From Patescibacteria group bacterium (GTDB lineage: Bacteria; Patescibacteriota; Minisyncoccia; 2-02-FULL-40-12): DNA of 64,000 bases. Position numbers and translations under genes: made by a program. Below the pieces are notes generated by a model. It ran no database searches, had not been told where the DNA came from, and saw nothing but the letters and a program-made list of their open reading frames with translations. How positions within the stretch are numbered: the stretch's first letter is position 1; each line of letters starts with the position of its first letter. Shown here one piece after another: positions 2,313 to 31,382 of this stretch. The stretch spans positions 7,857 through 71,856 of the forward strand of contig JBBTXZ010000003.1 in NCBI GenBank assembly GCA_038062015.1, written 5' to 3'.

Positions 2313-2390
2313 GGCACAGTCGATTTCTTCTCTTGAGACACTTCTTGGAAATGGCGCGCTACTTTCTATAATTCTTTACGCCCTCTGATT
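2313..2390 (+). repeat. Half copy (copy 5) of the stop-codon-adjacent structured element family. Begins 20 nt after the rplU stop, in sense orientation.
   Basis: GGCACAGTCGATTTCTTCTCTTGAGACACTTCTTGGAAATGGCGCGC is a near-exact reverse complement of the right arm of copy 1 (3408-3454). Confidence 0.65.
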
Positions 2391-2464: not shown

Positions 2465-2618
2465 TAAGATATAATTAAACGGCACCTTAATATATGATAT
2501 CTGCGGTAGCAAAGAGTTCTTAGGCATATTCAATTAAAACTAAAAGTCAGGATTCTTTGTTGTCGCAGATATGGAAAGAGTCAAAAAGATTGGGCATTTT
2601 GCGCAAAAGGAGGGAGTG

Positions 2619-3116
2619 ATGAAGAGAGAAACCTTGTATTTGCTAGCGGCCGTTTTCTTGGCAGCAAGTGTTGGTGCAGGTGTTGGTTTTCTATATCCTT
2701 TGATTCTTCCACCTCCGTCTCAGTCTGTAGAAGAGACATACGCTTCAACGGTCGAGTTCGAGGGTCTAAAGAGAGACGTTTCTAATCTCTACGATCGGAT
2801 CAGCGAGCTTGAAAAGGAAATTGAAACAAATCCTGATTTCTTTATCCGGCGGATGGATCGGGATCTGGATTTGCTCGAAAAAGGGCAAAATCCACACGGC
2901 AGTTTCTCGGACTACTTTGTTCCGAATGCCATGGCGGCCTTGAAAGCCGGAGCTGCGAAGAAAGAAGTGTTAACGAGGCTTGAACGAGTAGTTGCTCTGG
3001 CCGAGAAAAAGGTCTACTTGAGTAGTTACGTCGGTCAGCTTGTCCGGGAGGGCGGGATCGAAGCCGTACGCTCTTACATAGAGGGTGCGACGGGCTTACG
3101 TCTTTCCCGTCCATAG
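2619..3116 (+). CDS. Hypothetical membrane-anchored coiled-coil protein in a GC-rich island. The ORF track starts at 2571; the SD-supported start is the Met at 2619.
   Basis: AAGGAGG sits 5 nt before the ATG at 2619. N-terminal TM helix. About 48% GC against a background of about 35%. Followed by a strong intrinsic terminator. Confidence 0.55.
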   Translation: MKRETLYLLAAVFLAASVGAGVGFLYPLILPPPSQSVEETYASTVEFEGLKRDVSNLYDRISELEKEIETNPDFFIRRMDRDLDLLEKGQNPHGSFSDYFVPNAMAALKAGAAKKEVLTRLERVVALAEKKVYLSSYVGQLVREGGIEAVRSYIEGATGLRLSRP

Positions 3117-3133
3117 TTATGTTCATTTTCGTC

Positions 3134-3190
3134 CCCGCAGGAGCAATTCATCGGTTATACCGGAAACGCTCCTGCGGGGCGTTTTTTTGT
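3134..3190 (+). terminator. Rho-independent terminator
   Basis: CCCCGCAGGAGC ... GCTCCTGCGGGG 12-bp stem followed by TTTTTTTGTTT. Confidence 0.75.
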
Positions 3191-3241
3191 TTAGTATGAC
3201 GAGACCTTGCCGAGATGGAATCTTCTAATAAAGTATTGGGA

Positions 3242-3454
3242 GGGCATGACTGATTTCTGAACCTGAGGGTGTCTTGAGAAATGGCCGCTATCTTTACGCA
3301 GTCCCCATGCGAGTTCCCACAGGGACGAGCTGGGATGTTCTGACAAATTGCCGTTAACAAATCTATGGTGGAGGTATCCTGATTTGTCGGCAATTCAAGT
3401 AAAGTGGCGTGCCATTTCCAAGAAGTGTCTCAAGAGAAGAAATCAGTCATGCCC
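3242..3454 (-). repeat. Structured intergenic element, copy 1 (ends 3 nt before the dnaB stop codon, sense to dnaB)
   Basis: Closing stem GGGCATGACTGATTTCT / AGAAATCAGTCATGCCC. Conserved core TTTCTGAAC ... AATTGCCG-hairpin-CGGCAATT ... CTCAAGAGAAGAAA shared with copies 2 and 3. Confidence 0.75.
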
Positions 3455-3457
3455 GAG

Positions 3458-4804
3458 CTATATATTCTTCGCCAAATTCTTAAAACTCACTTCTTCTTCA
3501 TCGAAATAAAGCTCAACCGCACCGGTGGGTCCGTTGCGGTGTTTGGCAATAATAATTTCGGCGATATTTTTTCTGTCCGAATCATGGTGCCTTACTTTAT
3601 CTTCCCGATGGATGAACATTACTAAATCAGCGGCCTGTTCAATCCCGCCTGATTCTCTTAAATCCGAAAGCCGAGGTCTCTGGTCTGGCCTTGCTTCAAC
3701 TGCCCGGGATAACTGCGAAACGGCGATAATCGGGATATTCAGCTCCCGGGCCAAAGCTTTCAGGGAATTAGCCACGTCCGTCACCTGCTGGACATAACCT
3801 TCAATGTCGCTTCTGGGCTGGACTAACTGTAAGTAATCAATCACTAAAAGCCCGAGTTCGTTTTTGGCTTTTAACCGTCTGGCCATGGCTCTGATCTGTA
3901 AAACCGTGGGCGAAGGCGCGTCATCTATAAAGATAGAAACTTTTGATAAGCTATCCAAAGCCAGAGAAATTTTCGAAAAATCATTGAAGTCGCCCGAGCT
4001 GGTCAAGTGGCCAGTTCTTAATTTCCAAAGGCTCACCCCGGCTTCGGCTGATAAAATTCTATCTATCACCTGGTCTTTGGACATTTCCAGACTAAATAGT
4101 CCAACGCCGGCATTTTCTTTTTTGGCGATATTCCTAACCATATCCAAAGCCAAAGATGTTTTTCCAAGCGAGGGCCTTGCTCCAAGAATGATCAAATCCG
4201 AACGTTGAAGCCCAGCCAGTATATTATCCAAATCCACAAAGCCGGTTGAAAGGCCTCGCAAGGCGCCGTCCCCCCGATGAAGCCTTTCCAGCCGTTCAAA
4301 AGCTTCGTGGAGCTCCTCTTTCAAAGCTGTAAATTCCTGAGTTAAGGAGCGTTGGGAAACAGAGAAAAGATTTTGTTCAGCCTGATCCAGAATTTTTTCA
4401 ATACTTTCGTCTTCCTGATGGCCGAGGGCCGTAATTTTGTGGGCCGAATCTATCAAGTCCCGCAAAATTTTCTTGCGCCGGATTATTTTTCCATAATTTA
4501 ATATGTGGGCTGAAGTCGGCGTGGCGCTTAGAAGAGAAGTAAGGTAAGACGCTCCGCCGGCATTTTCAAGCTCGTCGCCTTCTTCAAGCTTGTTTGAAAC
4601 AGTCAAAATATCTATAGGTTCGTTTTTTTCCAAAAGGCTGACCATTGCTTTGAAAATCAGGTGGTTTTGGCGGGCGTAAAAATCATCGGGCCTTAAAATA
4701 TCAATTATTTTTTCAATTGAGCCTTTATCAATTAAAATAGAGCCCAAAACAGATTTTTCGGCTTCAAGGTTTTGGGGCGGAAGCTTGTCGGGAAGATTAG
4801 CCAT
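3458..4804 (-). CDS. dnaB: Replicative DNA helicase DnaB
   Basis: N-terminal LPPQNLEAEKSVLGSIL. Walker A GARPSLGKTSLAL. RecA-like C-terminal domain. Confidence 0.9.
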   Translation of the reverse strand: MANLPDKLPPQNLEAEKSVLGSILIDKGSIEKIIDILRPDDFYARQNHLIFKAMVSLLEKNEPIDILTVSNKLEEGDELENAGGASYLTSLLSATPTSAHILNYGKIIRRKKILRDLIDSAHKITALGHQEDESIEKILDQAEQNLFSVSQRSLTQEFTALKEELHEAFERLERLHRGDGALRGLSTGFVDLDNILAGLQRSDLIILGARPSLGKTSLALDMVRNIAKKENAGVGLFSLEMSKDQVIDRILSAEAGVSLWKLRTGHLTSSGDFNDFSKISLALDSLSKVSIFIDDAPSPTVLQIRAMARRLKAKNELGLLVIDYLQLVQPRSDIEGYVQQVTDVANSLKALARELNIPIIAVSQLSRAVEARPDQRPRLSDLRESGGIEQAADLVMFIHREDKVRHHDSDRKNIAEIIIAKHRNGPTGAVELYFDEEEVSFKNLAKNI

Positions 4805-4876
4805 GGAGGTATGATAAATGTCTAATTTTAATGAGACAAGGGATAATCTGTGGAGATAACTTATCTTTTTTTACTT

Positions 4877-6283
4877 TTAGCTTTTACTTTTTAACTTTAC
4901 TAGTGGCCCGTAAGGAGTGTCTTCAATGGAATATCCCAAGGCCTGGATCTCATCCCTGGCTTTGTCGGCTTCAAGCCAGGCCTTTTCTTTTCTTAATGTT
5001 TCACGTTTTTCAACCAATTGTAAAATATCGGTAATTTTTAGCCATTCGTCTGGTAAAACCCCTAGAATATCTCTTCCTATCCAATTTAATAATTTTTTGA
5101 TCTCAACCGCCTGTTTTTTTGATATCAAGCCGCTGGATAGAAGTTTGTTTATTTCTTTGATAAAATTGAATAATTCCGAAAGCGCTAGGGGAGTATTAAA
5201 ATCGTTGTCTAATGCACTCTCTATTTTCTCTTTATATTCTTCTATTAATTCTTGCACTCTAGTTATTTCTGTTTCTTTCGGTAAGTCCAGATTTCCAGGA
5301 GTAAGCTTCCAATCAAGCTCGAAAATCCTTTGCACTGCCGCCTCTGATTGTTTCAATAAATTTTCTCTATACTCAACAGGAGAACGGTAGTGAGCATTTA
5401 TAGCCATAAAACGTAGCGATTCGGAAGAATACTTCTTCAGAATGTTTTGGATAGTTATAGTATTTTTGAGTGATTTAGACATTTTTTGGCCATTTATTGT
5501 CACAAGTCCGGAATGAAGCCAGTATTTCACGAAAGGTTTTTTACCAGAGGCGGCTTCTTGTTGAGTAATTTCTGCTTCGTGATGAGGAAATATTAAATCC
5601 TGGCCGCCGCCATGAATATCGTACTGCTGACCCAAATATTTTTCAGTTATAGCTGTATCTTCAATATGCCAGCCAGGTCGGCCAAAACCAAAAGGGCTAC
5701 TCCAACCAGGTTTTCCGGACTCTGATATTCGCCATAAGACAAAGTCGCCTTTATTTCTTTTACTGACCGATTCATCAACTCTGGAAACTGCGTCCTCGGC
5801 CTGCTGGACAGTCCTCTTAGATAATTTTCCGTAGCCTTCAAATTTTGAAATGTCAAAATAAATACCTTCCTCAATTTTGTAAGCATATCCTTTATCAAGC
5901 AGGGTTTGGATTTGTTTAATAATTTCTTTTATGTGGTCAGTGGCTCTGGCTATTTTATTTATACTGTTGATGTTAAGATTTTTAATATCCTCTAAAAAAC
6001 TTGTTTCATAAAGTTTAGCTATATCTTCCCAAGGTTTATTTTCCTGTTTCGCACGGTCAATTATTCTATCATCGATGTCCGTTATATTAAGTACAAAATT
6101 AACTTTATATCCTTTATAGCGTAGGTATTTTACAAAAACATCAAATATAACATAGGTTCTAATATGACCAATGTGTGAAAAATCATATACAGTAGGACCG
6201 CAGACAAAAAGATTAACCTTTTTATTTTTAAATGGCTCAAAAAGCTCTTTTTTAGCCGAAAGTGTATTATAAATTTGAATCAT
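4877..6283 (-). CDS. cysS: Cysteinyl-tRNA synthetase
   Basis: CGPTVYDFSHIGH (HIGH motif) and KMSKS motif. Confidence 0.9.
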   Translation of the reverse strand: MIQIYNTLSAKKELFEPFKNKKVNLFVCGPTVYDFSHIGHIRTYVIFDVFVKYLRYKGYKVNFVLNITDIDDRIIDRAKQENKPWEDIAKLYETSFLEDIKNLNINSINKIARATDHIKEIIKQIQTLLDKGYAYKIEEGIYFDISKFEGYGKLSKRTVQQAEDAVSRVDESVSKRNKGDFVLWRISESGKPGWSSPFGFGRPGWHIEDTAITEKYLGQQYDIHGGGQDLIFPHHEAEITQQEAASGKKPFVKYWLHSGLVTINGQKMSKSLKNTITIQNILKKYSSESLRFMAINAHYRSPVEYRENLLKQSEAAVQRIFELDWKLTPGNLDLPKETEITRVQELIEEYKEKIESALDNDFNTPLALSELFNFIKEINKLLSSGLISKKQAVEIKKLLNWIGRDILGVLPDEWLKITDILQLVEKRETLRKEKAWLEADKARDEIQALGYSIEDTPYGPLVKLKSKS

Positions 6284-6339
6284 AAATAGACTAGTCTAAT
6301 TTTATTTTAACAATATTTATTATATATATATTAAAGGAA

Positions 6340-6363
6340 GAGGTCTCCGCCCTCGGAGACCTC
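6340..6363 (-). terminator. Hairpin/terminator downstream of the GC-rich gene at 6389
   Basis: GAGGTCTCCG-CCCT-CGGAGACCTC perfect 10-bp stem. A/T-rich tract follows on the minus strand. Confidence 0.45.
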
Positions 6364-6388
6364 AAGTGGAATTTGGCTGATCTGGAAG

Positions 6389-6928
6389 TTAGTCAGCGCA
6401 GTAACAACATGACTGGTTGTTCGTTGTTGTCTTCCAGAACAAGCTGTCGGGCGGACCGAAGTACTGCGTGTACCTCGCTATGGTGCCGCTGAGATAATCA
6501 GGCATCAGTGCTATGTTTTCTTCTTCGCTGACAGTGGGTCCGTGATGGATGAACTGTCCGCTCGCGACTTCTGAACAGAACTTGTGGTAGTTTCGTGTGT
6601 TCAGCACGGCCATGTGCCAGAAATCGTCGACATCCTTGGACATCGGAAGGCACTGATCTGGATGCATGATGCGAAGGAACAAGTATTTCTTGAACTCTTG
6701 ATCCATCGCTACAGCTACATCTGGTTCGTAGCCCAGTCGGTTGATGACCAGAAGTCTTTCTCTGGAGAAGTCGAATTCACACACTCTTTTGAAGAGAATG
6801 CGAGCCGCCTCTGGCGCACCTGGCCTCAATTTAGAAAACAACGAGTTACTCCTCGAGTCGACGGGTAACTCCCTTACAATGCAGCTACTGTCATGACTCA
6901 ACCTCCTAAAGAACTGGTTTTGCAACAA
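6389..6928 (-). CDS. Hypothetical protein, GC-rich island, DUF1399/GRDP-like motif. TTG start.
   Basis: Pattern KKYLFL...DVDDFWHMAVL...Y..FC......G.FIHH resembles the DUF1399 core (W-H..L..Y..C..HH/HDD). About 50% GC. Confidence 0.4.
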   Translation of the reverse strand: MLQNQFFRRLSHDSSCIVRELPVDSRSNSLFSKLRPGAPEAARILFKRVCEFDFSRERLLVINRLGYEPDVAVAMDQEFKKYLFLRIMHPDQCLPMSKDVDDFWHMAVLNTRNYHKFCSEVASGQFIHHGPTVSEEENIALMPDYLSGTIARYTQYFGPPDSLFWKTTTNNQSCCYCAD

Positions 6929-7101
6929 CTATGTTGTTTGTGTTGCCTTAAAATAATAATATAATTACTCAGCTAATTGAGTCAAGAGTAATCATAAACT
7001 GTCGGCCCGCATACAAAAATATCGACGTTTTTGCCTTTTATCGGCGAAAATTCTTCTTTTTGTCCGCTTAGAGTGTTTAAAAGTTTAAACATTTTTTTAA
7101 T

Positions 7102-8358
7102 TTAAATCGTGAAAAAAACAATAACCGCCGCGCTCATAAAAAGCAAAGCAATATAACCCAAGAGATTAGAAAATCTTCCGTTGGTGTATGAACCCATGAT
7201 TTTTTTATTATTGGAAATCAGAAGAATAGTTAAGATCAGGGGAGGCAGGACTAAGCCATGGAAGAAAGCGGTGTAGAATAGGAGCCTCACCGGATTAAAG
7301 CCGGCGTAGTTTAAAAACAGAGCCAAAGCGGTTGAAACAATAATTACCAAATAAAATCCCTTTGCTTTTTTGAATTTTTTATCAAGCCCGAGCGGCCAGC
7401 CGAATGTTTCCGAAAGAATATAAGCCGAGCCGGCGGTCAGTATCGGAATTATCAAAAAGCCGGTGCCGATAATTCCGAGAGTAAAAACCAGCTGACCCAA
7501 ATCGCCGAGAAGCGGCTTTAAAAGCTGGGAAATTTCCTCGATGGTCTGAATTTTTATGTTAGTGCCGAAAAATAAAGTCGCTGCCAGAATCATTATGAAA
7601 AACTTGATCAGGTTTGAAAAAAACATTCCAAAAGTGATGTCGCCGGCCATATGCTTGATTTCTTTTTCAAGTTTTTTATCACTGTGAAAATCGTGGTTGT
7701 GGCGATGTTCTTTTTCTTCAAAAGCTTCCTGACTGGTCTGCCAGAAAAACATATAAGGGGCTAAGGTAGTGCCGAATATGGCGATGATTATAGAAATTGT
7801 CTCTTGGTTTAAAATTAAATTCGGGAAAGCGATTTTTCTAAAAATTTCAGGCCAGTCGTGGGATATCATTAAAGCCGCGGCTATATAGAAAAAAAGGGTT
7901 AATGCCAGCCATTTGAAGTATTTTATTATTTTTTTAAAATCCCAGGAGATTATCAAAAGAATTATTATTAAAGCATAGACGATGTCGAGCGCCCTCACCG
8001 GCACTCTCGGGATTATAAGATTTGTGGCAGCGCTCATTCCGGAAAGATCAGCTCCGATATTCAAGACATTAGTGGAAGCCATTATTATCACAATCAAGCC
8101 AAGAAGCCATCGGGAGTAATATTTTTTTAAAACTCCGGCCAAACCCATTTTGGTGACTATACCTATCCGGGCCGACATTTCCTGAACCGCGGTCATCAAA
8201 GGAAAAGTGAAAAAAGCGGTCCATAGAGAAGAAAAACCGAGCCGCGTTCCGGCAATAGTGTAAGTAGTAATGGCGGCGGCGTCGTCATCGGATGCTCCCG
8301 AAATGAATCCGGCTCCTAGATATTTCCAAAACTTCTTTATCCCCTTTACAAAACCCAT
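7102..8358 (-). CDS. NRAMP-family divalent metal (Mn2+/Fe2+) transporter
   Basis: GAGFISGASDDDAAAITTYTIAGTRLGFSSLW matches the Nramp DPGN-region consensus. About 11 TM helices. Confidence 0.7.
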   Translation of the reverse strand: MGFVKGIKKFWKYLGAGFISGASDDDAAAITTYTIAGTRLGFSSLWTAFFTFPLMTAVQEMSARIGIVTKMGLAGVLKKYYSRWLLGLIVIIMASTNVLNIGADLSGMSAATNLIIPRVPVRALDIVYALIIILLIISWDFKKIIKYFKWLALTLFFYIAAALMISHDWPEIFRKIAFPNLILNQETISIIIAIFGTTLAPYMFFWQTSQEAFEEKEHRHNHDFHSDKKLEKEIKHMAGDITFGMFFSNLIKFFIMILAATLFFGTNIKIQTIEEISQLLKPLLGDLGQLVFTLGIIGTGFLIIPILTAGSAYILSETFGWPLGLDKKFKKAKGFYLVIIVSTALALFLNYAGFNPVRLLFYTAFFHGLVLPPLILTILLISNNKKIMGSYTNGRFSNLLGYIALLFMSAAVIVFFTI

Positions 8359-8606
8359 TATATTTTTTTCTCAATTTGTTTTATTTCAATTTTTAAAAAT
8401 TTCATTATTTTTTTCCAAAAATTCGGATGGTCCACAATCAACTCGCTTAAAATTGCAAATGGGATGACAAATAAAAATATTCTTCCCAAAACAGCCGGGG
8501 TGATACCGGCGCCAGCTCCGTATTTGACGGCAATCAGATTATCTAAAGTATTGAAAATCAAACCGAATATCAGGAATTCGATTAGCCTCAATTTTCTTAT
8601 AGTCAT
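8358..8606 (-). CDS. Small hypothetical membrane protein
   Basis: Two predicted TM helices. Start overlaps the NRAMP gene. Confidence 0.35.
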   Translation of the reverse strand: MTIRKLRLIEFLIFGLIFNTLDNLIAVKYGAGAGITPAVLGRIFLFVIPFAILSELIVDHPNFWKKIMKFLKIEIKQIEKKI

Positions 8607-8633
8607 TGTCTTAATTCTATTATAAAATATAAG

Positions 8634-9203
8634 TTATTTTTTCTCCACCCGCTCAGCGTATTCGCCAGTTTGGGTGTTTATCCGGATTATGTCGCCTTCT
8701 TCGATGAAAAGAGGAGTATTGATTAGAGCGCCGGTTTCCAGTTTGATCTGCTTAGTGCCGCCTTGGGCGGTATTACCGCGGACTGATGGCGGGGCTTCAA
8801 TAACTTTAAAATCCATTTTAACCGGCAGTTCTATATTTATGATTTTACCATTAAAAAGCAGGCTGGAAATCAAAGTATTAGGTTTTAAAAAATGCGAAGA
8901 TTCGCCAATAATATCTTCGCCAAGCTTGAACCTTTTTACCGGCTCATCAATTTCCGAAAACCAGAATTCGCCCCGGTGGAAATATAAAAATTTAACCTCT
9001 TTTTTTTGGATGTCAGCCTCTTCGAAATAATCGGACTGCTGGAAATTCCTTTCAACGGTTTTCCCAGTCAGAAGATTTTTTATCTTAGTCTGCATCACCG
9101 GCCGGCGCTGCTGCATTTTTAAATGCTGGGAAAACAAAACCTCAAAGGGCTGCCCTTCTAAAATAAAAAAAATCCCGGTTCTTAAATCATTCATTCCGAG
9201 CAT
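8634..9203 (-). CDS. efp: Elongation factor P
   Basis: MNDLRTGIFF..EGQPFEVLF..H.K.....P.MQTK.KNLLTG typical EF-P N-terminus, with three OB-like domains. Confidence 0.9.
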   Translation of the reverse strand: MLGMNDLRTGIFFILEGQPFEVLFSQHLKMQQRRPVMQTKIKNLLTGKTVERNFQQSDYFEEADIQKKEVKFLYFHRGEFWFSEIDEPVKRFKLGEDIIGESSHFLKPNTLISSLLFNGKIINIELPVKMDFKVIEAPPSVRGNTAQGGTKQIKLETGALINTPLFIEEGDIIRINTQTGEYAERVEKK

Positions 9204-9221
9204 AAAAATAGAACTTAGAAT

Positions 9222-10091
9222 TTAGTAATTAGAATTTAGAACAGAACCGATAAAGTCTTTACGGCCATTCAAAAAATCCTTTATTTCCATTGGTTTTTTA
9301 CCTTCAAGTTGAACGGTTTTCAATAACACAGCGCTATGAAAGCCACACTTTATTGCGGTTTGTCTATTTTCAACCAAAAAAACCTGACCATTTTTAAAAT
9401 TACCATTTTTTTTAGAAATCGGCAATACTTCAAGGATTTTCAATATCTTATTATTCCAAGCAGTCCAGGTTCCGGGTTCAGGATTTAAGGCGCGTATTTG
9501 CCTGTCTATTCCATCGGCAGATTTTGACCAGTCAATTTTTCCGTCTTGCCAAGAAAATTTCTTAGTGTAGATCGCTTCTTGATGATTTTGTTCAGTCGGT
9601 TTTACTTCTCCGTTAATCCATTTCGGCAAAATCTCAATTAAAAGCTTAGTTCCTAATTCTGCGAGTTTTTTTTCCAGTTCTTTATATTTTTCATTTTTCA
9701 TTTTTAATTTTTCATTTGCTATTGTCGGCCCGTGGTCAACTTTTTCATCCATTAAAATTATGGTTACGCCGGTTTCTTTTTCGTCGTTTAAAATCGCTGA
9801 TTGTATTGGGGAGGCCCCGCGGTATTTTGGCAGAAGCGAGGGATGGATATTCAGAAAACCATATTTGGGAATTTCCAAGTATTCTTTGGGAATTATTCTC
9901 CCATAAGCGGCGACAACGCAAATATCCGGGTTTAATTTTTTAAAATCTTCAATGCCTTTTTCTAAATCCCAGAGAATAGGGGAGCAGCCTCGTAAAGGGG
10001 CGTGGCCCCCACGAGGCTTTACGCCCCCTTTTTTCAAAGCCTCAAAAACCGGCTTTGAGAAAGATGATGTTCCGAAAAAAAATAATTTCAT
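9222..10091 (-). CDS. fmt: Methionyl-tRNA formyltransferase
   Basis: FFGTSSFS N-terminus. HPSLLPKYRGASPIQSAIL catalytic motif. C-terminal domain present. Confidence 0.8.
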   Translation of the reverse strand: MKLFFFGTSSFSKPVFEALKKGGVKPRGGHAPLRGCSPILWDLEKGIEDFKKLNPDICVVAAYGRIIPKEYLEIPKYGFLNIHPSLLPKYRGASPIQSAILNDEKETGVTIILMDEKVDHGPTIANEKLKMKNEKYKELEKKLAELGTKLLIEILPKWINGEVKPTEQNHQEAIYTKKFSWQDGKIDWSKSADGIDRQIRALNPEPGTWTAWNNKILKILEVLPISKKNGNFKNGQVFLVENRQTAIKCGFHSAVLLKTVQLEGKKPMEIKDFLNGRKDFIGSVLNSNY

Positions 10092-10155
10092 GAATGAATC
10101 GAATACGCCCTCACGGGCTCCTTTTTATATTAAAACTTCATCCCAAATTCCGCCG

Positions 10156-10184
10156 TTGACATAACTCAAAATAAGGCATAATAT
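10156..10184 (+). promoter_or_regulatory. Sigma70-like promoter for the GC-rich small-gene pair
   Basis: TTGACA, 17-nt spacer, TAATAT. GGAGG SD before the ATG at 10211. Confidence 0.5.
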
Positions 10185-10210
10185 AATTTATTCTGTAAAA
10201 GGGGGAGGCA

Positions 10211-10420
10211 ATGAATATTAACAGTCCGGGAGACGCTAATGAAAAGAATCCAGTACATTGTTATGGGTGTGATGAAATTGTAATTGCGGCTAGAGAACAC
10301 CACAAAGAGAAACACTTCAGAACCACACACAAGTGTCCGAAGTGCGGTTATAGAGGAAGTCTCTTGACCATAAACGGAATACCCCAATTGAGGCATCCTG
10401 GCGAGATACCTGGAGCATAG
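10211..10420 (+). CDS. Small zinc-ribbon protein (CxxC...CxxC), GC-rich island
   Basis: HCYGCDE ... CPKCGY. Strong promoter and SD. Confidence 0.5.
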   Translation: MNINSPGDANEKNPVHCYGCDEIVIAAREHHKEKHFRTTHKCPKCGYRGSLLTINGIPQLRHPGEIPGA

Positions 10421-10452
10421 TCGTAAAATTGTTCTTTTAGGAGGAGATAGCC

Positions 10453-10740
10453 ATGACAGAACAGACAGCGAAGCAACGGCGTCCTTTTCACGAATCCATC
10501 GTCGATGCAATCCGTCGTGCCTCATACAGCGATATGAGGTGTCTAGGAAAACTCATCCAGGAGACCAAGATCCCAAAGGGTCACGACGCAATAATCGCCG
10601 CCTGGAATGATCGAAATGAGGAACTGTCTCGCGAGATGCGCGAGGCCGGTGATGTGTATGGCGATCTTTTCGAACAGAAACAGGAAGCTGAAGAAAAGGA
10701 AAGGGCGAAGAAACAGCAGAATGAAGTCGCCACCACATAA
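10453..10740 (+). CDS. Hypothetical small acidic protein, GC-rich island
   Basis: AGGAGG SD 6 nt upstream. Followed by a terminator. Confidence 0.5.
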   Translation: MTEQTAKQRRPFHESIVDAIRRASYSDMRCLGKLIQETKIPKGHDAIIAAWNDRNEELSREMREAGDVYGDLFEQKQEAEEKERAKKQQNEVATT

Positions 10741-10773
10741 CCTAGGGAGCACTTTTCCCGCCAAGCTTCACAA

Positions 10774-10809
10774 GGCGCCCGACCTACTGGTCCGGCGCCT
10801 TTTTCTTTC
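10774..10809 (+). terminator. Rho-independent terminator
   Basis: GGCGCCCGACC-TACT-GGTCCGGCGCC stem followed by TTTTTCTTT. Confidence 0.65.
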
Positions 10810-10862
10810 GGGTTTCGCTGGCGAGTTCTGACGAGGCGAAATCTTCTAATGATTTAGGTTGT

Positions 10863-11065
10863 GCGGGGCATGCCCGTTTTCTGAACTACAAGGGAGCAGG
10901 AACAAATAACCGAAAGAGGGTGAATAATTTGCCGGTTACAACATAGGGTAGGGGATTCCCTATTTGTCGGCAAATTTTAATGAGGTCAATTTCTTAATTG
11001 CGAATGGTACTCTCTGAGGGTTATTTGTCTGCGACGCTTGAGAGAAGAAAACGGGCATGCCCCGC
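10863..11065 (-). repeat. Structured intergenic element, copy 2 (ends 2 nt before the def stop codon)
   Basis: Closing stem GCGGGGCATGCCCGTTTTCT / AGAAAACGGGCATGCCCCGC. Shared motifs TTTCTGAAC, AATTTGCCG...CGGCAAATT (covarying with copy 1 AATTGCCG/CGGCAATT), CTTGAGAGAAGAAA. Extended left homology TGACGAG...AATCTTCTAATGA from 10829. Confidence 0.75.
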
Positions 11066-11066
11066 G

Positions 11067-11774
11067 CTATTTATCCGTAATCATAACCCCTTGCAGATGG
11101 TCGTATTCGTGCTGCAAGACCCGGGCCAGCATGCCTTTGGCGATAAACTTGTATTTCTTTTCGTTCTCATCCACTGATTTAACCTTCACCTTTTTCGGCC
11201 TTTTGATTTTCAACCATGTCTCCGGAATGCTCAAACAACCCTCTTCAAGCTCTTCAGAATCTTTTGAGTATGGCTTTACTTCCGAATTTATGTAGACGCT
11301 CGGCGCGTTGTGTTCCTTAGCCAATTCTTCATCAATCACAAAAAGGGCCATATCCAAACCGACCTGGTTCGCCGCTAAACCAATGCCATTGGCTTCTTTC
11401 ATCGTTTTTTTCATCTTTAAAATAACCTTTTTCAGTGAAGGCGTTATTAAACCAATTATTTTTAGTTTTTGGGACAGAATTTCAGCCGGTTTTTTGACAA
11501 TTTCCATCTTATTTGTCGATTCGTAAACGAAAAGTTTCCCCGGGGTTTTTACATTTTTGGACTGTTTTATTTTTGAAAATATCCGGTAGGCCGGTCTAAG
11601 CCCTATATTTTTAATTATCCCCAGATACATCGCGAATTTTTTGGATTCCCCGGCGTATTCTGATATTTCTTTGGCCAAGGCGTGGATCGGACCATGAATC
11701 CCGCGCTCCGGCTTTTTCTTCTTTATTTTAGCGAATTCTTTTCCGATTTTAGTCAAACCGGCCGATATTCTCAT
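11067..11774 (-). CDS. def: Peptide deformylase, with an ~89-aa N-terminal extension or a mis-set start (internal Met at 11507)
   Basis: GIGLAANQ, EGCLS and QHEYDHLQG, the three PDF motifs. Confidence 0.8.
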   Translation of the reverse strand: MRISAGLTKIGKEFAKIKKKKPERGIHGPIHALAKEISEYAGESKKFAMYLGIIKNIGLRPAYRIFSKIKQSKNVKTPGKLFVYESTNKMEIVKKPAEILSQKLKIIGLITPSLKKVILKMKKTMKEANGIGLAANQVGLDMALFVIDEELAKEHNAPSVYINSEVKPYSKDSEELEEGCLSIPETWLKIKRPKKVKVKSVDENEKKYKFIAKGMLARVLQHEYDHLQGVMITDK

Positions 11775-11803
11775 TACCTCAAAAATAGTATATTATATTA
11801 ATT

Positions 11804-13249
11804 ATGTCTAACCAAATTCGAGTCAGAATCGCCCCAAGCCCTACCGGGCCACTTCATATAGGCACCGCGCGCACGGCGCTTTTTAATTGGCTTTTTGCCC
11901 GAAAAAACAAAGGGGATTTCATCTTAAGAATTGAAGATACTGATTTGGAACGCTCTGACCCGAAATTTGAGGAAGAAATCAAGGACTCTCTGGATTGGTT
12001 AAACCTGGAATGGGACGAATTTTACAAGCAAAGCGAGCGAATCGGGGTTTATAAAAAATACCTGCAAAAACTTCTGGATGAAGGTAAAGCATTCTGGTGT
12101 TATCACACGATTGAAGAATTAGAACAAGAAAAAAAAGAACAGACAAAACGAAAAGAAGCGCCGCGCCATATTTGTCAGCATAAGTATATGAAACATGAAA
12201 CAAAGAACATGAAACAGGGGATTATTAGATTAGCGGTTGATGAAAATTCAACTAGAATAATTCACTTTAACGACATAATCCGCGGAACGATTGAGTGGCA
12301 AGAACGTTTGATAGGGGATTTGAGCTTAGCTAAAAACTTAGAAACGCCTTTATATAATTTTGCTGCCGTGGTTGACGACTATGAAACAAAAATTTCGCAT
12401 GTAATAAGAGGAGAAGACCATATTTCAAACACGCCGAAACAGATATTAATTCAGGAAGCGCTTGGATTCAATTCTTTCCAATACGTTCATCTGCCTTTAA
12501 TTTTAGGATCGGACAGAACTAAACTTTCAAAAAGACACGGGGCAGAATCGATTCAAGAGTATATGGATATGGGCTATTTGCCAGAAGCAATGATTAACTT
12601 TATGGCTTTGCTTGGATGGCATCAGCCAGAAGATATAAAGAGAAAAGGAGAAAAACCTGAAGATATTTTTACCATAGATGAACTGGCTGCCGTATTTAAT
12701 TTAGAAGACGTCCAAAAGTCGCCGGCTGTTTTTGACATAAAAAAACTGAACTGGATGAACAGTTATTATATTCATCAATTGCCGCCGGAACAATTCAGAG
12801 CGGCGGTAGAGCCATTTATAATTAAAGAACTTGGCGTGAATGGCGTAAGAGACGAGTATTTGGATAAAATCCAGCACCTTATGGCCGAGCGCATGGAAAA
12901 ATTATCCGACGTAAAAAATTTTGATTATTTTTTCAAAGAACCGGAATACAATAGGGGATTACTAATTTGGAAAACATTTACTAACGAAGAAATCAAGAGA
13001 TCGCTCACTTTAACAAAAGAAGCGCTTGAACCGGTTGATTGGGGAATTTTTGACAAAGATTATATTAGAAAAAAAATAGATAATCTGGCTAAGGAAAATT
13101 TTGACGGCGATAGGGGAGCGGTCTACTGGCCTTTAAGGGTGGCCTTGACGGGCAAAGAAGCATCACCTGACCCGATTGATATACTGGCAGTTTTACCGAA
13201 AGAAACAGTCATTAAAAGACTTGAAAATGCTATTAAGCTTACACCATGA
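11804..13249 (+). CDS. gltX: Glutamyl-tRNA synthetase
   Basis: RIAPSPTGPLHIGTARTAL (HIGH motif) and KLSKRHG (KMSKS motif). Confidence 0.9.
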   Translation: MSNQIRVRIAPSPTGPLHIGTARTALFNWLFARKNKGDFILRIEDTDLERSDPKFEEEIKDSLDWLNLEWDEFYKQSERIGVYKKYLQKLLDEGKAFWCYHTIEELEQEKKEQTKRKEAPRHICQHKYMKHETKNMKQGIIRLAVDENSTRIIHFNDIIRGTIEWQERLIGDLSLAKNLETPLYNFAAVVDDYETKISHVIRGEDHISNTPKQILIQEALGFNSFQYVHLPLILGSDRTKLSKRHGAESIQEYMDMGYLPEAMINFMALLGWHQPEDIKRKGEKPEDIFTIDELAAVFNLEDVQKSPAVFDIKKLNWMNSYYIHQLPPEQFRAAVEPFIIKELGVNGVRDEYLDKIQHLMAERMEKLSDVKNFDYFFKEPEYNRGLLIWKTFTNEEIKRSLTLTKEALEPVDWGIFDKDYIRKKIDNLAKENFDGDRGAVYWPLRVALTGKEASPDPIDILAVLPKETVIKRLENAIKLTP

Positions 13250-13336
13250 ATTCTTTAGTTTTATTAGTCCTAAAACCGGCCAGATTTATTTTAATTATTG
13301 GCAAAGAAGCTTAAATCCGTTTGATTATATGTAATT

Positions 13337-14599
13337 ATGACGAACATACTTATTTTGGGAGGAGGTTTTGGAGGAATCAGCGCCGCTTTGAAACTGGAAA
13401 GAGAATTAAAAAATAATTCCGATTTCAAAATTACCTTAATAGACCGCAATAATTTCCATTTATTCACTCCTTCTCTTTACGAAGTCGCTACTGTCTACGG
13501 CCTTATTCAAGATAATTTCGCCCAATATTTGAGAGGTTCGGTGGCTATTCCGATCAACGAAATACTGAAAGGTAAGAAAGTAAATTTCGTCCAAGCGGAA
13601 ATAAAAGAAATAAACCTTAAAGAAAAATTTGTTGCCTCTGGCGGCGGGGCAAAATTAGATTTTGATTATCTGATTATCGCTCTTGGCGGCGAAACAGAGT
13701 TTTATGGCATTCCCGGCGTTCAGGAATATGCTTTTAACTTTAAGTCAATTGATAATGCGATAGGGATTTTCAAAAAAATCCAAGAAATTTATAAAAAATA
13801 TCAAAAAGAGAAAGATGAAAAAGATTTAAGAATCGCAATAATCGGCGGTGGTTTCACTGGGGTAGAATTTGCTGCCGAATTGGGTTGTTGTGTGGGTAAT
13901 ATCATAAAAGATTATAAATTGAGTAAAACATGCACCATAATTTCCTTATTTGAGGCCGGGCCAGTAATTTTATCGGCCATAAATGAAAAATCAAGAAAAG
14001 CTATTGAGAAAAGATTGAAAAATGAGATGGTAAAAATTCAGATAAATTCACCAGTGGCCAAAGTCGGTCCTGATTACATTAAAATCGGAGATGGCGGAGA
14101 AGCATTGAATTTTGATTTAGTTGTCTGGGCAGGCGGAGTCCGCGGCTCAAGATTTTTAGAGAATTTAGGATTAAAGCTGACCAAAAAAGGAACAATTGAA
14201 ATTAATGATTTTCTGCAGACAAAAAATCATGATGATTCTTTAAATGAAAAAATTTTTGCAATAGGGGATAGCGCAACTTTTATTGATCCAAAAACCGGAA
14301 AATCGGTCCCGGCAATGGCTTATGTCGCTTATGACCAGGGTGCGATTGCCGCCGAAAACATAATAAAAGACATTAATAAACAAAAATTAACCCCTTATAA
14401 ACCGTTTTATGATGTCTGGATAGCGCCGGCCGGGGGCAAATGGGCCTACTTTTACTATAAAGGCATCGGCATTGCCGGATTCACGGGTTATTTACTAAAA
14501 CAACTGGTTGATTTTAAATACTTTCTAAGAATTCTGCCGTTAAATAAAGCCCTGGCCCTTTTCTTTAAAGATTTGGTGATTTTTACGAGGAATGATTAA
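13337..14599 (+). CDS. ndh: Type II NADH:quinone oxidoreductase (NDH-2) / FAD-dependent pyridine nucleotide-disulfide oxidoreductase
   Basis: ILILGGGFGG Rossmann motif. Second dinucleotide-binding motif IIGGGFTGVEFAAEL. Confidence 0.7.
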   Translation: MTNILILGGGFGGISAALKLERELKNNSDFKITLIDRNNFHLFTPSLYEVATVYGLIQDNFAQYLRGSVAIPINEILKGKKVNFVQAEIKEINLKEKFVASGGGAKLDFDYLIIALGGETEFYGIPGVQEYAFNFKSIDNAIGIFKKIQEIYKKYQKEKDEKDLRIAIIGGGFTGVEFAAELGCCVGNIIKDYKLSKTCTIISLFEAGPVILSAINEKSRKAIEKRLKNEMVKIQINSPVAKVGPDYIKIGDGGEALNFDLVVWAGGVRGSRFLENLGLKLTKKGTIEINDFLQTKNHDDSLNEKIFAIGDSATFIDPKTGKSVPAMAYVAYDQGAIAAENIIKDINKQKLTPYKPFYDVWIAPAGGKWAYFYYKGIGIAGFTGYLLKQLVDFKYFLRILPLNKALALFFKDLVIFTRND

Positions 14600-15547
14600 T
14601 TATCCGTTTTTAATTCCGTGAAACTTACGATGGATCTCTCGAAGTCGCGGTTTGGTAATATGAGTATATATCTGAGTAGTGACTATACTTTTATGGCCCA
14701 AAAATTCTTGGACAGTTCTTAAATCAACTCCTTTCATTAATAAATCCGTTGCAAAACTGTGACGCAGTGTATGAACTGTAGTGATTATCGGCAGGCCGGC
14801 TAAAATCGCGCATCCCTTGACCGTTCTTTCAATGCTTTTAATGCTCAGCTGGCTGCCCGGAGATTTACCCCTATAGTTTATAAATAAGGCCTTATTATTG
14901 TCTTTTCTTGTTTCAAGGTACTTTCTTAGCCAATTAATTGCCCTTTCCGATAAATAAACCGTTCGTGGCCGGTTGCCTTTGCCGATAATTGATATCTCTA
15001 AATCTTCAGTCGTGTTTTTAATTTTTATTTGCTCGCGATTCAAACTTGCTAATTCAGCGACTCTTAAACCGGTGGAGAAGAGGATTTCCAATATAGACCT
15101 GTCTCTTAATCCAATGACTCTGGAGGTGTCCGGAACGCTGAATAGTTTTTCAAGCTGTTCTAAGTTTAAAAAATGTAGAATTTTTTCTCCTTTTTCTTTT
15201 GGCAGTTTTATTTTTTCGGGGGGCAGAGAAGTGATGTCTTTTTCAGCGAAATAGGTCAGTAAAGATCTTAAAGCGATTAGATAGTAGTTCTGAGTCGTTT
15301 TTTTCAAAGGCCTGCCGTCTCTGGATATGTGATGCCGTGAAAGGTAAAGCTTATATTGCCAAATATGATCAGGGGAGAGATCAGCTGGTTTTACATTATC
15401 TAATTTATTTTTTTTAAGCCAATTTAAAAAAATTTTTAAAAATCTGGCATAGTTCTCCTGTGATTTGCTGGATAATCCTTTTTCTATTTCAAGCCAGTCC
15501 AAAAAATCTGTTAGGTGCTGGGGGAGTGGTTTTTGATTTATATTCAT
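14600..15547 (-). CDS. xerC: Tyrosine recombinase XerC/XerD family
   Basis: C-terminal HTLRHSFATDLLMKGVDLRTVQEFLGHKSIVTTQIYTH with the catalytic R..H..R..Y. Confidence 0.85.
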   Translation of the reverse strand: MNINQKPLPQHLTDFLDWLEIEKGLSSKSQENYARFLKIFLNWLKKNKLDNVKPADLSPDHIWQYKLYLSRHHISRDGRPLKKTTQNYYLIALRSLLTYFAEKDITSLPPEKIKLPKEKGEKILHFLNLEQLEKLFSVPDTSRVIGLRDRSILEILFSTGLRVAELASLNREQIKIKNTTEDLEISIIGKGNRPRTVYLSERAINWLRKYLETRKDNNKALFINYRGKSPGSQLSIKSIERTVKGCAILAGLPIITTVHTLRHSFATDLLMKGVDLRTVQEFLGHKSIVTTQIYTHITKPRLREIHRKFHGIKNG

Positions 15548-18026: not shown

Positions 18027-18100
18027 GCAATGGTGGCTTCGTTGTTTTTAGCGAACTATAGCCCGTTTGGCGATGCCATATATTAAAAATTTGTAAAAAG

Positions 18101-18273
18101 CGCGAGGCATATGTCTCTCGGGAAGTTCTGGAGACCGAGTAGCAAGGTAAGTCAAGATTGTTTGAACCCCGAGCTTGTCGAGGGGAAGTCTTGACTTTAC
18201 GAGGTCGTAAGTACAGCGAGCAAAACTCGCTGGGTTTTGCGAGCGGTTCCCGAAGACATATGCCGAGAGCAGC
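18101..18273 (-). repeat. Structured inverted-repeat element, copy 4 (diverged). Ends 3 nt before the ctpA stop codon.
   Basis: Outer stem GAGGCATATGTCTCTCGGGAA / TTCCCGAAGACATATGCCGAG. Nested 9-bp hairpin AAGTCAAGA/TCTTGACTT. Shares the 5' motif GCTCTCGGCAyAkTC with copy 5 after the stop codon. Confidence 0.55.
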
Positions 18274-31190: not shown

Positions 31191-31382
31191 AGAAAGCCGT
31201 GAGCCTGTATCAATTTCTGAGTCGGGCAGTGTTCTTGAGAAATGGCCGCTACCTTTATGAAGAATTGCCGAATGACAATTGCTGGTGGAGGATCCAGAAT
31301 TGTCGGCAATTCGAATAAAGTGGCGCGCCATTTCCAAGAAGGGCTCCCAAACGAAGAAATTGATATAGGCGATAAGGCTTTC
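31191..31382 (-). repeat. Structured intergenic element, copy 3 (ends 3 nt before the mnmA stop codon). Deletion variant lacking about 43 nt of the copy-1 core.
   Basis: Closing stems GAAAGCC/GGCTTTC and GCCTGTATCAATTTCT/AGAAATTGATATAGGC. Near-identical core to copy 1 (TCTTGAGAAATGGCCGCTA..., TGGTGGAGG, TTGTCGGCAATTC.A.TAAAGTGGCG.GCCATTTCCAAGAAG). Confidence 0.75.

What the first reader, a model, noticed from the sequence alone, without database searches (positions are those of the whole stretch)
10156..10809. GC-rich islands of small hypothetical genes with textbook expression signals in an AT-rich, SD-poor genome
Three segments stand out at about 48-50% GC: 2571-3116, 6389-6928, and 10211-10740. 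They carry near-consensus sigma70 promoters, AGGAGG/AAGGAGG Shine-Dalgarno sites, and strong GC-rich intrinsic terminators. Surrounding housekeeping genes mostly lack such strong SDs. Products are a membrane-anchored coiled-coil protein, a DUF1399/GRDP-like protein with a TTG start, a 69-aa CxxC...CxxC zinc-ribbon protein, and a 95-aa acidic protein. Two of the three islands directly abut copies of the structured element. The compositional contrast suggests recent horizontal acquisition. The zinc-ribbon plus small acidic protein pair could be a two-gene module, for example toxin-antitoxin-like or a phage-derived regulator.
Basis: partly seen in the sequence, partly recalled or inferred. Interest (0 to 1): 0.55.

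Follow-up and report, generated by a model that had tools for sequence, protein, structure and literature searches.

The report
Self-contained small-gene cassettes in a Patescibacteria genome
The three GC-rich patches are real, self-contained gene units, each with its own promoter, ribosome-binding site and terminator, that were inserted between housekeeping genes; they are not recent imports and not a toxin-antitoxin pair, and the protein functions remain unknown.

Summary
The three segments contain the three most GC-rich genes in the window (0.49-0.50; gene mean 0.405, sd 0.04). Each has a near-consensus or perfect sigma70-type promoter, a strong Shine-Dalgarno (SD) site and an intrinsic terminator. 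Elsewhere the genome looks leaderless: 26 of 67 genes have a -10 box 4-10 nt before the start codon. Only 7 of 67 have any SD core, and 4 of those are island genes.

- **95-aa protein ("X").** It belongs to a large uncurated family found here only in Patescibacteria (890 clusters at 50% identity). The family is nearly always a stand-alone unit with the same signals. X sits between fmt and def in three related genomes and has diverged about as much as its neighbours.
- **Zinc-ribbon ORF.** It is an orphan inserted between X's conserved promoter and X. None of 56 other X loci has such a partner, so there is no two-gene module.
- **Island 2.** Its "TTG start" comes from a 1-nt deletion. The real start is an ATG after AGGAGG, and the family is PF27765. 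A 36-codon relic of cysS lies beside it.
- **Islands 1 and 2.** One relative lacks island 2 and carries different cargo at the island-1 site.

These are therefore old, occasionally exchanged accessory cassettes.

The parts
10107..10129 (+). Small hairpin plus T-run just upstream of the island-3 promoter. It lies within the roughly 45 nt upstream of the -35 box that is homologous in W, L005 and L006.
   Evidence: Sequence; alignment; coordinates
10156..10184 (+). Sigma70-type promoter of island 3 (TTGACA, 17 nt, TAATAT). It is homologous to the X promoter in relatives.
10201..10208 (+). SD-like GGGGGAGG, only 2 nt before the zinc-ribbon ATG (short spacing).
10211..10420 (+). 69-aa CxxC..CxxC ORF. 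It is an orphan, specific to this lineage, inserted into the leader of X.
   Evidence: only itself found; absent in relatives
10439..10444 (+). AGGAGG SD of X, 8 nt before the ATG.
10453..10740 (+). X: a 95-aa helical protein with core motifs RPFHE(S/T)IVDAI ... TKIPKGHD.I..AW ... LLEQK and a K/E-rich tail. It belongs to a large uncurated family found here only in Patescibacteria.
10773..10809 (+). Intrinsic terminator of island 3: GC-rich hairpin plus TTTTTCTTTC.
   Evidence: conserved in L001, L005 and L006
10839..11072 (+). Conserved leader (AAATCTTCTAATGA...) plus rod-like hairpin element, copy 2. Its 3' end overlaps the def stop codon.
2322..2365 (-). Half copy (3' half) of the hairpin element in inverted orientation, just after the rplU stop codon.
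   Evidence: I1: 44 nt, 95% complementary to 3401-3444; a full copy sits at this site in L068
2436..2464 (+). Perfect sigma70 promoter of island 1 (12 of 12 matches).
2497..2572 (+). 24-bp hairpin in the island-1 5'UTR. It sequesters the upstream ATG at 2571.
   Evidence: z = -3.6
2619..3116 (+). Island-1 ORF, 165 aa counted from the SD-led ATG: an N-terminal TM helix followed by a helical or coiled-coil part. No relatives were found.
3133..3189 (+). Island-1 terminator.
3242..3454 (+). Hairpin element, copy 1. Its 3' end abuts the dnaB stop codon (3458).
6982..7092 (-). 36-codon relic of a cysS N-terminus. It ends in a stop codon that overlaps the island-2 -35 box.
   Evidence: 86% identical to L068 cysS, 61% to the window's own cysS
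6958..6985 (-). Island-2 promoter (TTGACT, 16 nt, TATATT).
6389..6907 (-). Island-2 gene with its AGGAGG SD (6902-6907) and ATG 6894. It is a PF27765/UCP032817-like protein of 168 aa. In this assembly a 1-nt deletion between 6877 and 6878 breaks the reading frame.
6333..6363 (-). Island-2 terminator.
31203..31370 (+). Hairpin element, copy 3. It abuts the stop codon of the mnmA-like gene and has no island next to it.

Best explanation
Window 10156-10809 is a self-contained transcription unit with a 5' leader whose translation depends on a Shine-Dalgarno site. Its parts are a consensus-like promoter, a leader, SD sites, ORFs and an intrinsic terminator.

Its conserved core is X, a roughly 95-aa four-helix protein. 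X belongs to a large, uncurated family found here only in Patescibacteria. In most genomes the family is a stand-alone unit with its own TTGACA-type promoter, a leader of about 50 nt, an AGGAG SD and a terminator. In this lineage an orphan zinc-ribbon ORF has been inserted between X's promoter and X.

Islands 1 and 2 are units of the same design with unrelated cargo: a TM/coiled-coil orphan and a PF27765 protein. All three are accessory cassettes placed between, or into, housekeeping genes of a genome that otherwise starts translation without SD sites and often without leaders.

They arrived by insertion or replacement and are exchanged only occasionally among related Patescibacteria. X has been vertically inherited at fmt-def in this clade. 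The high GC and canonical signals travel with the cassettes and are maintained; they do not mark a recent foreign origin.

Shown: the anatomy, the family distribution, synteny, variable presence, the cysS scar and the frameshift.

Inferred: that the cassettes are expressed; how they are exchanged (probably homologous recombination in flanking conserved genes); and the protein functions. X is most likely a soluble small helical binding or regulatory protein, possibly metal-binding through the near-invariant H13/E14 and H44/D45 residues.
For: - Anatomy.
- X family: 27 close and 890 distant clusters, no Pfam domain precomputed for any of the 27 close homologues, confident helical model at pLDDT 84.
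- X is found in 56 species, all Patescibacteria, with no conserved neighbour.
- Cassette signals are a family trait: 39 of 58 loci have a strong SD, 22 of 56 a promoter matching 10 or more of 12 positions, and 30 of 56 a terminator.
- X is GC-richer than its flanks in 39 of 58 loci, by 10-19 points in the nearest relatives.
- The order fmt-X-def is kept in L001/L008/L068, L004/L010 and L005. Divergence equals that of the flanks.
- The same cassette, including about 45 nt upstream of the -35 box, lies between secY and rplO in L006/L007.
- The zinc-ribbon ORF is inserted downstream of the conserved promoter only in the window.
- Island 2 is absent from L068, shared with L066, and marked by the cysS relic.
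- The island-1 site holds different cargo in L068.
- Ribosomal protein genes have bulk-like GC3, so simple expression bias does not explain the contrast.
- The arrangement is reproduced in independent assemblies.
Against: - No transcription or protein data exist. Promoters and terminators are consensus matches only.
- No function could be assigned to any of the four proteins. Fold searches found nothing significant.
- Island 1 has no known relatives, so its history rests on a single comparison with L068.
- Why GC3 and G/C-ending two-fold codons stay high over roughly 25-35% protein divergence is not explained. At four-fold sites in conserved residues, housekeeping genes are also about 0.4-0.6 GC, so part of the contrast comes from amino-acid composition.
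- The order of divergence among W, L066 and L068 is unresolved. Loss of island 2 in L068 cannot be fully excluded, although the relic argues for insertion.
Confidence: 0.6

Rival explanations
1. Recent horizontal acquisition from outside Patescibacteria, for example from a phage or plasmid. In this reading the islands are young foreign DNA that has not yet drifted to the host's composition.
For: Composition and codon use are atypical: G-ending K/E/Q codons 0.45-0.54 against 0.27 +/- 0.08. The signals are canonical, unlike the host's style. Islands 1 and 2 differ from, or are absent in, L068. The island-2 family has weak partial phage matches.
Against: X and island 2 are shared with relatives at 63-75% identity, with synonymous sites as diverged as in flanking genes and the GC contrast intact. 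All X homologues are in Patescibacteria. There are no phage or IMG/VR hits for X, the zinc-ribbon ORF or island 1. No integrase or transposase lies within 14 kb.
Confidence: 0.06
2. The zinc-ribbon ORF and X form a functional two-gene module, either toxin-antitoxin-like or a phage-derived regulator pair.
For: The two ORFs appear to be co-transcribed from one promoter, 32 nt apart, each with an SD. Rare X homologues carry C-terminal Cys-rich or zinc-ribbon extensions: 3 of 169, for example P0121 and P0050.
Against: The zinc-ribbon ORF is unique to this genome. None of 56 X loci has such a neighbour or any recurrent small partner. Relatives have the promoter directly followed by the leader and X. 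There is no match to TA or defence families. The SD spacing of the zinc-ribbon ORF is only 2 nt.
Confidence: 0.04
3. The islands are native, vertically inherited genes. Their GC, codon use and strong signals reflect selection for very high or specially regulated expression, in the way rpsU is one of the few SD-led genes in Bacteroidota.
For: The GC contrast and signals persist in relatives and across the X family. L21 shows similar codon preferences. X diverges in step with its neighbours.
Against: Five ribosomal protein genes and IF-1 have bulk-like GC3 of 0.35-0.44. Island 2 is absent and island 1 replaced in L068. There is a cysS scar. X occupies different loci in different lineages.
Confidence: 0.15
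4. The cassettes are cargo of a mobile or recombination system defined by the rod-like hairpin element. The cargo, its terminator, the conserved leader and the hairpin would move or be exchanged as a unit, loosely like an integron cassette with its attC site or a MITE-flanked composite.
For: Four different cargo contexts are followed by terminator, conserved leader and hairpin: islands 1 and 3, the L068 site, and L006 secY-rplO. The rplU-dnaB site is bracketed by two inverted element copies with different cargo in W and L068. The hairpin is under structural selection.
Against: Copy 3 has no cargo, and island 2 has no element. The element follows X only in the nearest relatives. Its constant feature is that it abuts the stop codon of a convergent housekeeping gene, which fits a role at the 3' end or as an antisense RNA. 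No recombinase was seen nearby. The G-U strand bias points to RNA rather than a DNA site.
Confidence: 0.12
5. The islands are an assembly or binning artefact, such as chimeric contigs or contaminant inserts.
For: This is a MAG, and there is a 1-nt indel in island 2.
Against: The same junctions appear in independent assemblies: L065 is identical over 810 nt apart from the indel, and the proteins are seen on 4-5 contigs. Syntenic cassettes occur in other MAGs.
Confidence: 0.02

Closest known systems
Phage 'morons' and other autonomous accessory gene units
   Same: A single ORF or a few ORFs bracketed by their own promoter and intrinsic terminator, with base composition unlike the neighbouring genes, inserted between functional genes.
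   Different: These units are not in a prophage. No phage homologues were found for three of the four proteins. They sit between chromosomal housekeeping genes, and X has been stably inherited in its clade.
Pfam PF27765 (UCP032817-like), uncharacterised; island 2 only
   Same: All nine homologues, including one 98% identical, carry a precomputed PF27765 hit. Conserved motifs are W-H...NTRNY...G.FIHH.P and a C-terminal CCxC.
   Different: The function is unknown. The copy in this assembly is frameshifted.
Type II toxin-antitoxin modules
   Same: Two small adjacent ORFs that appear co-transcribed, one of them acidic.
   Different: The pair is not conserved, neither protein matches a TA family, and X is stand-alone in other genomes.
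Integron gene cassettes with attC sites; REP/BIME/ERIC and MITE-like intergenic palindromes (relevant to the neighbouring hairpin element)
   Same: A structured imperfect palindrome lies just 3' of variable cargo. There are several diverged copies per genome, in intergenic regions at gene 3' ends.
   Different: The hairpin is 170-270 nt and rod-like. It shows a strand-specific G-U bias, which suggests RNA. The cargo has its own promoter. No integrase or array is present, and copies occur without cargo.
Rare SD-led genes in genomes with few SD sites (for example rpsU in Bacteroidota; cited from my own knowledge, not tested here)
   Same: A few genes keep a strong SD in a genome where most genes lack one.
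   Different: Here the SD-led genes are accessory genes of unknown function. The 16S anti-SD sequence could not be examined because no rRNA gene is in the window.

Membership tests
Type II toxin-antitoxin module | Two adjacent genes conserved as a pair across genomes | tested here: not met
   The zinc-ribbon ORF has no homologue. None of 56 X loci has a CxxC..CxxC neighbour or a recurrent small partner.
Type II toxin-antitoxin module | Homology of at least one partner to a known toxin or antitoxin family | tested here: not met
   Pfam, NCBIfam, PADLOC and PHROGs gave nothing at or above their cut-offs.
Recently acquired genomic island | Composition unlike the host genome | tested here: met
   GC 0.49-0.50 against 0.405 +/- 0.04, with distinct use of two-fold codons.
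Recently acquired genomic island | Absent from close relatives at the same locus | tested here: inconclusive
   Island 1 is replaced by other cargo and island 2 is absent in L068. Island 2 is shared with L066, and X is present in all three related genomes.
Recently acquired genomic island | Lower synonymous divergence than flanking genes, or unameliorated composition found only in this genome | tested here: not met
   Identity at four-fold sites is 0.33-0.71 against 0.38-0.50 for the flanks, and the GC contrast is kept in relatives.
Recently acquired genomic island | Mobility genes, or a tRNA gene directly next to the island | tested here: not met
   No integrase or transposase is among the ORFs at 1-14600. 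tRNA-Glu at 1895-1968 is separated from island 1 by rplU.
Recently acquired genomic island | Nearest homologues lie outside the host phylum | tested here: not met
   All 56 species with X are Patescibacteria MAGs. X has no phage or IMG/VR relatives.
Phage moron | ORF bracketed by its own promoter and terminator | tested here: met
   (consensus matches only).
Phage moron | Located inside a prophage or phage genome | tested here: not met
   The neighbours are rplU, dnaB, cysS, Nramp, efp, fmt, def and gltX. No phage matches were found.
Pfam PF27765 (UCP032817-like), island 2 | Significant match to the family model | tested here: met
   Precomputed PF27765 hits on all 9 homologues, including the 98%-identical P0171. 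The local Pfam copy lacks the model, so the window protein was not scored directly.
DUF1399 / GRDP-like | Match to the Pfam DUF1399 model | tested here: not met
   No Pfam family at E<=1 for the 179-aa ORF.
Zinc-ribbon proteins (69-aa ORF) | Two CxxC pairs about 20 residues apart, plus a match to a curated zinc-ribbon family | tested here: inconclusive
   CxxC at residues 18-21 and 42-45. The best hits fall far below the cut-offs: NF011481 18.9 bits against 61, DnaJ_CXXCXGXG 15.7 against 32.7.
Integron gene cassette | An attC-like hairpin 3' of promoterless cargo, next to an intI gene or in an array | tested here: not met
   A hairpin is present, but it is 170-270 nt long. The cargo has its own promoter, there is no array, and no recombinase lies within 14 kb. 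The rest of the genome was not searched.

The most novel reading that the evidence does not exclude
In this clade of Patescibacteria, GC-rich cassettes with SD-led translation and their own promoters may be mechanistically tied to a new family of rod-like structured RNAs of about 200 nt. Each RNA is antisense to the 3' end of a convergent housekeeping gene. The unit of cargo, terminator, conserved leader and hairpin would be what is inserted or exchanged. That would make it a previously undescribed cassette system, and X would be its most widespread cargo.
Probability: 0.12. Interest if true: 0.7.

Novelty: new variant of a known kind. Interest (0 to 1): 0.4.

Why it matters
The result suggests that the flexible gene pool in this ultra-small bacterium is packaged as autonomous units with canonical promoter, SD and terminator signals, while the core genome uses leaderless or SD-free initiation. 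That offers a sequence signature for finding accessory genes in Patescibacteria MAGs. It also singles out a large uncurated small-protein family (X), found here only in Patescibacteria, for experimental work. In addition, the analysis corrects one gene model, exposes a probable cysS replacement event, and documents a covarying structured RNA family that is not in Rfam.

Tried and rejected
- Rfam, at gathering and at E-value thresholds, found no family for the hairpin element.
- Pfam, NCBIfam, PHROGs and PADLOC found nothing for any of the four proteins. Scanning all 27 X homologues gave no recurrent weak family.
- A PDB sequence-profile search, Foldseek against PDB for X and for island 2, and Foldseek against BFVD for X gave nothing significant.
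- Longer X homologues were scanned for fused domains. Only one showed a weak match, to a peptidoglycan-binding domain.
- Clustering of neighbouring genes across 58 loci found no conserved neighbour of X.
- A raw folding-energy scan of the loci was dominated by GC content and was not informative. A long-stem search then showed that the element follows X only in the nearest relatives.
- A six-sequence MAFFT alignment of whole elements was too gappy to build a covariance model. The basal stem was analysed instead.
- A metagenome scan with the island-1 protein found nothing. A DNA pattern scan for the element found only the L001-type genome and one chance hit inside a methyltransferase gene.
- Comparing L004 with L005 to look for precise excision of the element showed an imprecise deletion of about 240 nt instead.
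- A literature search on SD or leaderless usage in Patescibacteria returned nothing specific. A search for UCP032817/DUF1399 returned only plant GRDP papers.
Full report
**1. Checking the observation**

The window is 40.0% GC. In 500-nt windows the mean is 0.40 with sd 0.039.

Per gene they are the three most GC-rich genes of 70 ORFs once two spurious ORFs are set aside: 0.487, 0.493 and 0.503 against 0.405 +/- 0.040. Their GC3 values are 0.49, 0.62 and 0.53 against 0.40 +/- 0.06. The contrast is moderate, and 29 other 500-nt windows reach 0.45 or more.

- Island 3 has TTGACA-17-TAATAT at 10156-10184, GGGGGAGG at 10201-10208 before ATG 10211, AGGAGG at 10439-10444 before ATG 10453, and a GC-rich hairpin plus T-run at 10773-10809.
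- Island 1 has a perfect 12-of-12 promoter at 2436-2464, AAGGAGGGAG before ATG 2619 and a terminator at 3133-3189.
- Island 2, on the minus strand, has TTGACT-16-TATATT at 6985-6958, AGGAGG at 6907-6902 and a terminator at 6363-6333.

The claim of an SD-poor genome holds inside the window. A strong SD followed by the start of a long ORF occurs at real gene starts only in the islands. An SD core of 4 nt or more precedes 7 of 67 genes, and 4 of these are island genes. By contrast, 26 of 67 genes have a TAnnnT box 4-10 nt before the start codon, against 13.6% at background ATGs. This is the signature of leaderless mRNAs.

**2. Corrections to the gene models**

The 181-aa ORF probably starts at ATG 2619, giving 165 aa. 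The upstream ATG at 2571 lies in the 3' arm of a 24-bp hairpin in the 5'UTR.

The 'TTG start' of island 2 is an artefact. An independent contig from the same population (L065) is identical over 810 nt except for one extra base. That base restores an ATG-initiated, SD-led ORF of 168 aa beginning MTVAALVRELPV, which matches all homologues. Those homologues carry Pfam PF27765 (UCP032817-like). No DUF1399 match was obtained.

**3. What island 3 encodes**

I call the 95-aa protein X. It has 27 close homologues, and a profile search finds 890 clusters at 50% identity (534 at E<=1e-10), mostly 75-125 aa long.

Near-invariant positions give the signature R-P-F-H-E-[ST]-I-V-D-A-I ... L..LI..T-K-I-P-K-G-H-D-x-I..A-W ... 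G-V..L-L-E-Q-K, followed by a K/E/A-rich tail. AlphaFold predicts four helices with mean pLDDT 84.

Nothing significant matched in Pfam, NCBIfam, PHROGs, PADLOC, PDB sequences, PDB folds or BFVD.

A scan of one genome per species found X in 56 species. All are Patescibacteria MAGs, including Paceibacterota and other Parcubacteria groups, Berkelbacteria and Kazan. IMG/VR and GenBank phages hold no relative.

There is no conserved neighbouring gene.

The cassette design is a trait of the family. A strong SD is present in 39 of 58 loci, a promoter matching 10 or more of 12 positions (usually with an exact TTGACA) in 22 of 56, and a terminator within 120 nt in 30 of 56. X is GC-richer than its flanks in 39 of 58 loci, with a mean of +5 points and +10 to +19 points in the nearest relatives.

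**4. The zinc-ribbon ORF**

It has two CxxC pairs, so it is plausibly a real small protein. Its only match among 5.8 billion proteins is itself.

In relatives, the region homologous to window 10110-10161, including the TTGACA box, is followed directly by a leader of about 50 nt and then X. In the window the zinc-ribbon ORF therefore lies between X's ancestral promoter and X.

None of 56 other X loci has a same-strand CxxC..CxxC ORF within 450 nt, and no small partner recurs. Only 3 of 169 homologues carry Cys-rich C-terminal extensions.

The reading as a toxin-antitoxin or regulator module is therefore not supported.

**5. Age and history of the islands**

Three related genomes keep the order Nramp-efp-fmt-X-def-gltX. 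Identity of X between them (63-70%) is similar to that of fmt (68%). It is below efp, def and gltX (76-86%). Identity at four-fold sites is comparable to that of the flanks. X is thus an old, vertically inherited resident at this locus.

The same cassette, with about 45 nt of homology upstream of the -35 box, also lies between secY and rplO on the opposite strand in L006/L007. So it can relocate.

Island 2 followed by cysS is shared with L066 at 75% and 70% identity, and the GC contrast there is intact: 0.51-0.53 against 0.29-0.36. A closer-looking relative, L068, has Nramp and cysS 10 nt apart with no island. L068 is 85% identical in dnaB, 87% in rplU and 77% in Nramp.

In the window, a 36-codon ORF at 6982-7092 lies directly upstream of the island-2 promoter. 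It is a cysS N-terminus (BLASTP E = 3e-15). It is 86% identical to L068's cysS but only 61% identical to the window's own cysS. The window's own cysS is unusually divergent (63% to L068) and has the lowest GC in the region, 0.355. The simplest reading is that an incoming segment carrying island 2 and a replacement cysS displaced the native gene from codon 37 onwards.

At the rplU-dnaB site, L068 carries different GC-rich cargo: a 79-aa ORF and a 126-aa lipoprotein-like ORF. This cargo again has a perfect TTGACA-17-TATAAT promoter, GGAGG SD sites and terminators.

Islands 1 and 2 are therefore variable accessory cargo. The shared arrangements and the saturated synonymous sites show that the insertions are not recent.

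**6. Why the GC stays high**

Simple expression bias does not explain it. S9, L13, L17, S11, S13 and IF-1 have GC3 of 0.35-0.44, although L21 resembles the islands.

Island genes use G-ending K/E/Q codons at 0.45-0.54, against 0.27 +/- 0.08 for the rest of the window. Islands 1 and 2 also use C-ending two-fold codons at 0.48 and 0.70, against 0.29 +/- 0.07.

At four-fold sites in conserved residues, housekeeping genes are themselves about 0.4-0.6 GC. Amino-acid composition and two-fold codons therefore carry much of the contrast.

Why this persists remains open. Possible causes are selection on the mRNA or on translation of SD-led messages, or repeated exchange within a GC-richer gene pool.

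**7. The neighbouring structured element**

The window has three full copies (3242-3454, 10861-11067, 31203-31370) and one half copy (2322-2365). They fold into rod-like hairpins with free energy of about -100 kcal/mol and z-scores of -9 to -11. Rfam has no match.

The 3' end of every copy, and of five further copies in relatives, abuts the stop codon of a convergent gene: dnaB, def, mnmA, rplO or rplU. In 8 of 8 copies the strand antisense to that gene folds better and has more G-U pairs.

The 17-bp basal stem is 97.8% paired. Eleven of its pairs show compensatory double changes, and 0 of 500 shuffles reached the observed values. One caveat is that I extracted the stem arms myself by their complementarity.

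A conserved leader of about 45 nt (..CGAAATCTTCTAATGA..) precedes the hairpin wherever it follows a cargo terminator. The element follows X only in the nearest relatives. Copy 3 has no cargo, and island 2 has no element.

A mechanistic link between the cassettes and the element is possible but unproven.

**8. Verdict**

The islands are insertions and variable cargo, but they are not recent, not from outside the phylum, and not a two-gene module.

What is there is a set of autonomous, canonically signalled small-gene cassettes in a genome that otherwise uses leaderless or SD-free initiation. One cassette carries a member of a large uncurated protein family found here only in Patescibacteria.

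No function could be assigned to any product. I commit to a small soluble helical binding or regulatory protein for X, possibly metal-binding through H13/E14 and H44/D45. This is inference only.

Noticed in passing
window 6982-7092 (-): A 36-codon relic of a cysS N-terminus lies between the Nramp stop codon and the island-2 promoter. It is 86% identical to the cysS of relative L068 but only 61% identical to the window's own cysS (4877-6283). The window's cysS is unusually divergent (63% to L068, against 77-87% for dnaB, Nramp and rplU in the same comparison) and has the lowest GC in the region (0.355). A xenologous replacement of cysS is likely.
   Followed up: partly
window 6877/6878 (-): A 1-nt deletion, relative to the otherwise identical contig L065, frameshifts codon 7 of the island-2 gene. 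It is either an assembly error or a strain-level pseudogene.
   Followed up: yes
window 3242-3454, 10861-11067, 31203-31370 (+); half copy 2322-2365 (-); L001 4420-4690, L005 4412-4650, L006 4460-4685, L068 10255-10480 and 11470-11727: A family of rod-like hairpin elements of 170-270 nt that is not in Rfam. Each copy abuts the stop codon of a convergent housekeeping gene. The basal stem covaries, and the strand antisense to that gene folds better in 8 of 8 copies.
   Followed up: partly
whole window: A leaderless signature: 26 of 67 genes have a TAnnnT box 4-10 nt upstream of the start codon (background 13.6%), and almost no gene has an SD. Examples are gltX at 11804, and the genes starting at 42091, 34305 and 22597/21722.
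   Followed up: partly
window 2497-2572 (+): A 24-bp hairpin in the roughly 150-nt 5'UTR of island 1 (z = -3.6). X leaders in relatives also contain a small hairpin before the SD. These may be regulatory structures.
   Followed up: no
L068 10255-11727: In a relative, the rplU-dnaB site is bracketed by two inverted full hairpin elements. It holds different GC-rich cargo (79-aa and 126-aa lipoprotein-like ORFs) with a perfect consensus promoter.
   Followed up: partly
L004 4352-4480 against L005 4450-4700: Two near-identical assemblies differ by a deletion of about 240 nt. It removes most of the hairpin element and the 3' end of def, leaving an altered def C-terminus in L004. It could be an assembly artefact or a real variant.
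   Followed up: partly
L020 3256-3631: A small GIY-YIG-like ORF of 120 aa lies immediately downstream of X, bracketed by a perfect 26-bp inverted repeat (3322/3631). Similar small GIY-YIG ORFs lie near X in 4 loci.
   Followed up: no
proteins P0121, P0050, P0022: Rare X homologues carry C-terminal Cys-rich or zinc-ribbon extensions (for example CPYC...CKHCGGTG). This is a weak hint of a functional link between the X domain and zinc ribbons.
   Followed up: partly
window 29453-29507 and 61235-61289; 55178-55274; 18082-18291: Other repeats were seen: a 55-nt GC-rich direct repeat (78% identity) inside two different ORFs, and two AT-rich inverted repeats of about 20 bp.
   Followed up: no
window 27-1805 (+): A large GC-rich ORF with a PT-repeat linker, three repeated Ig-like-looking modules and a C-terminal TM anchor. 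It is a likely surface protein and one reason why GC of 0.45 or more is not unique to the islands.
   Followed up: no
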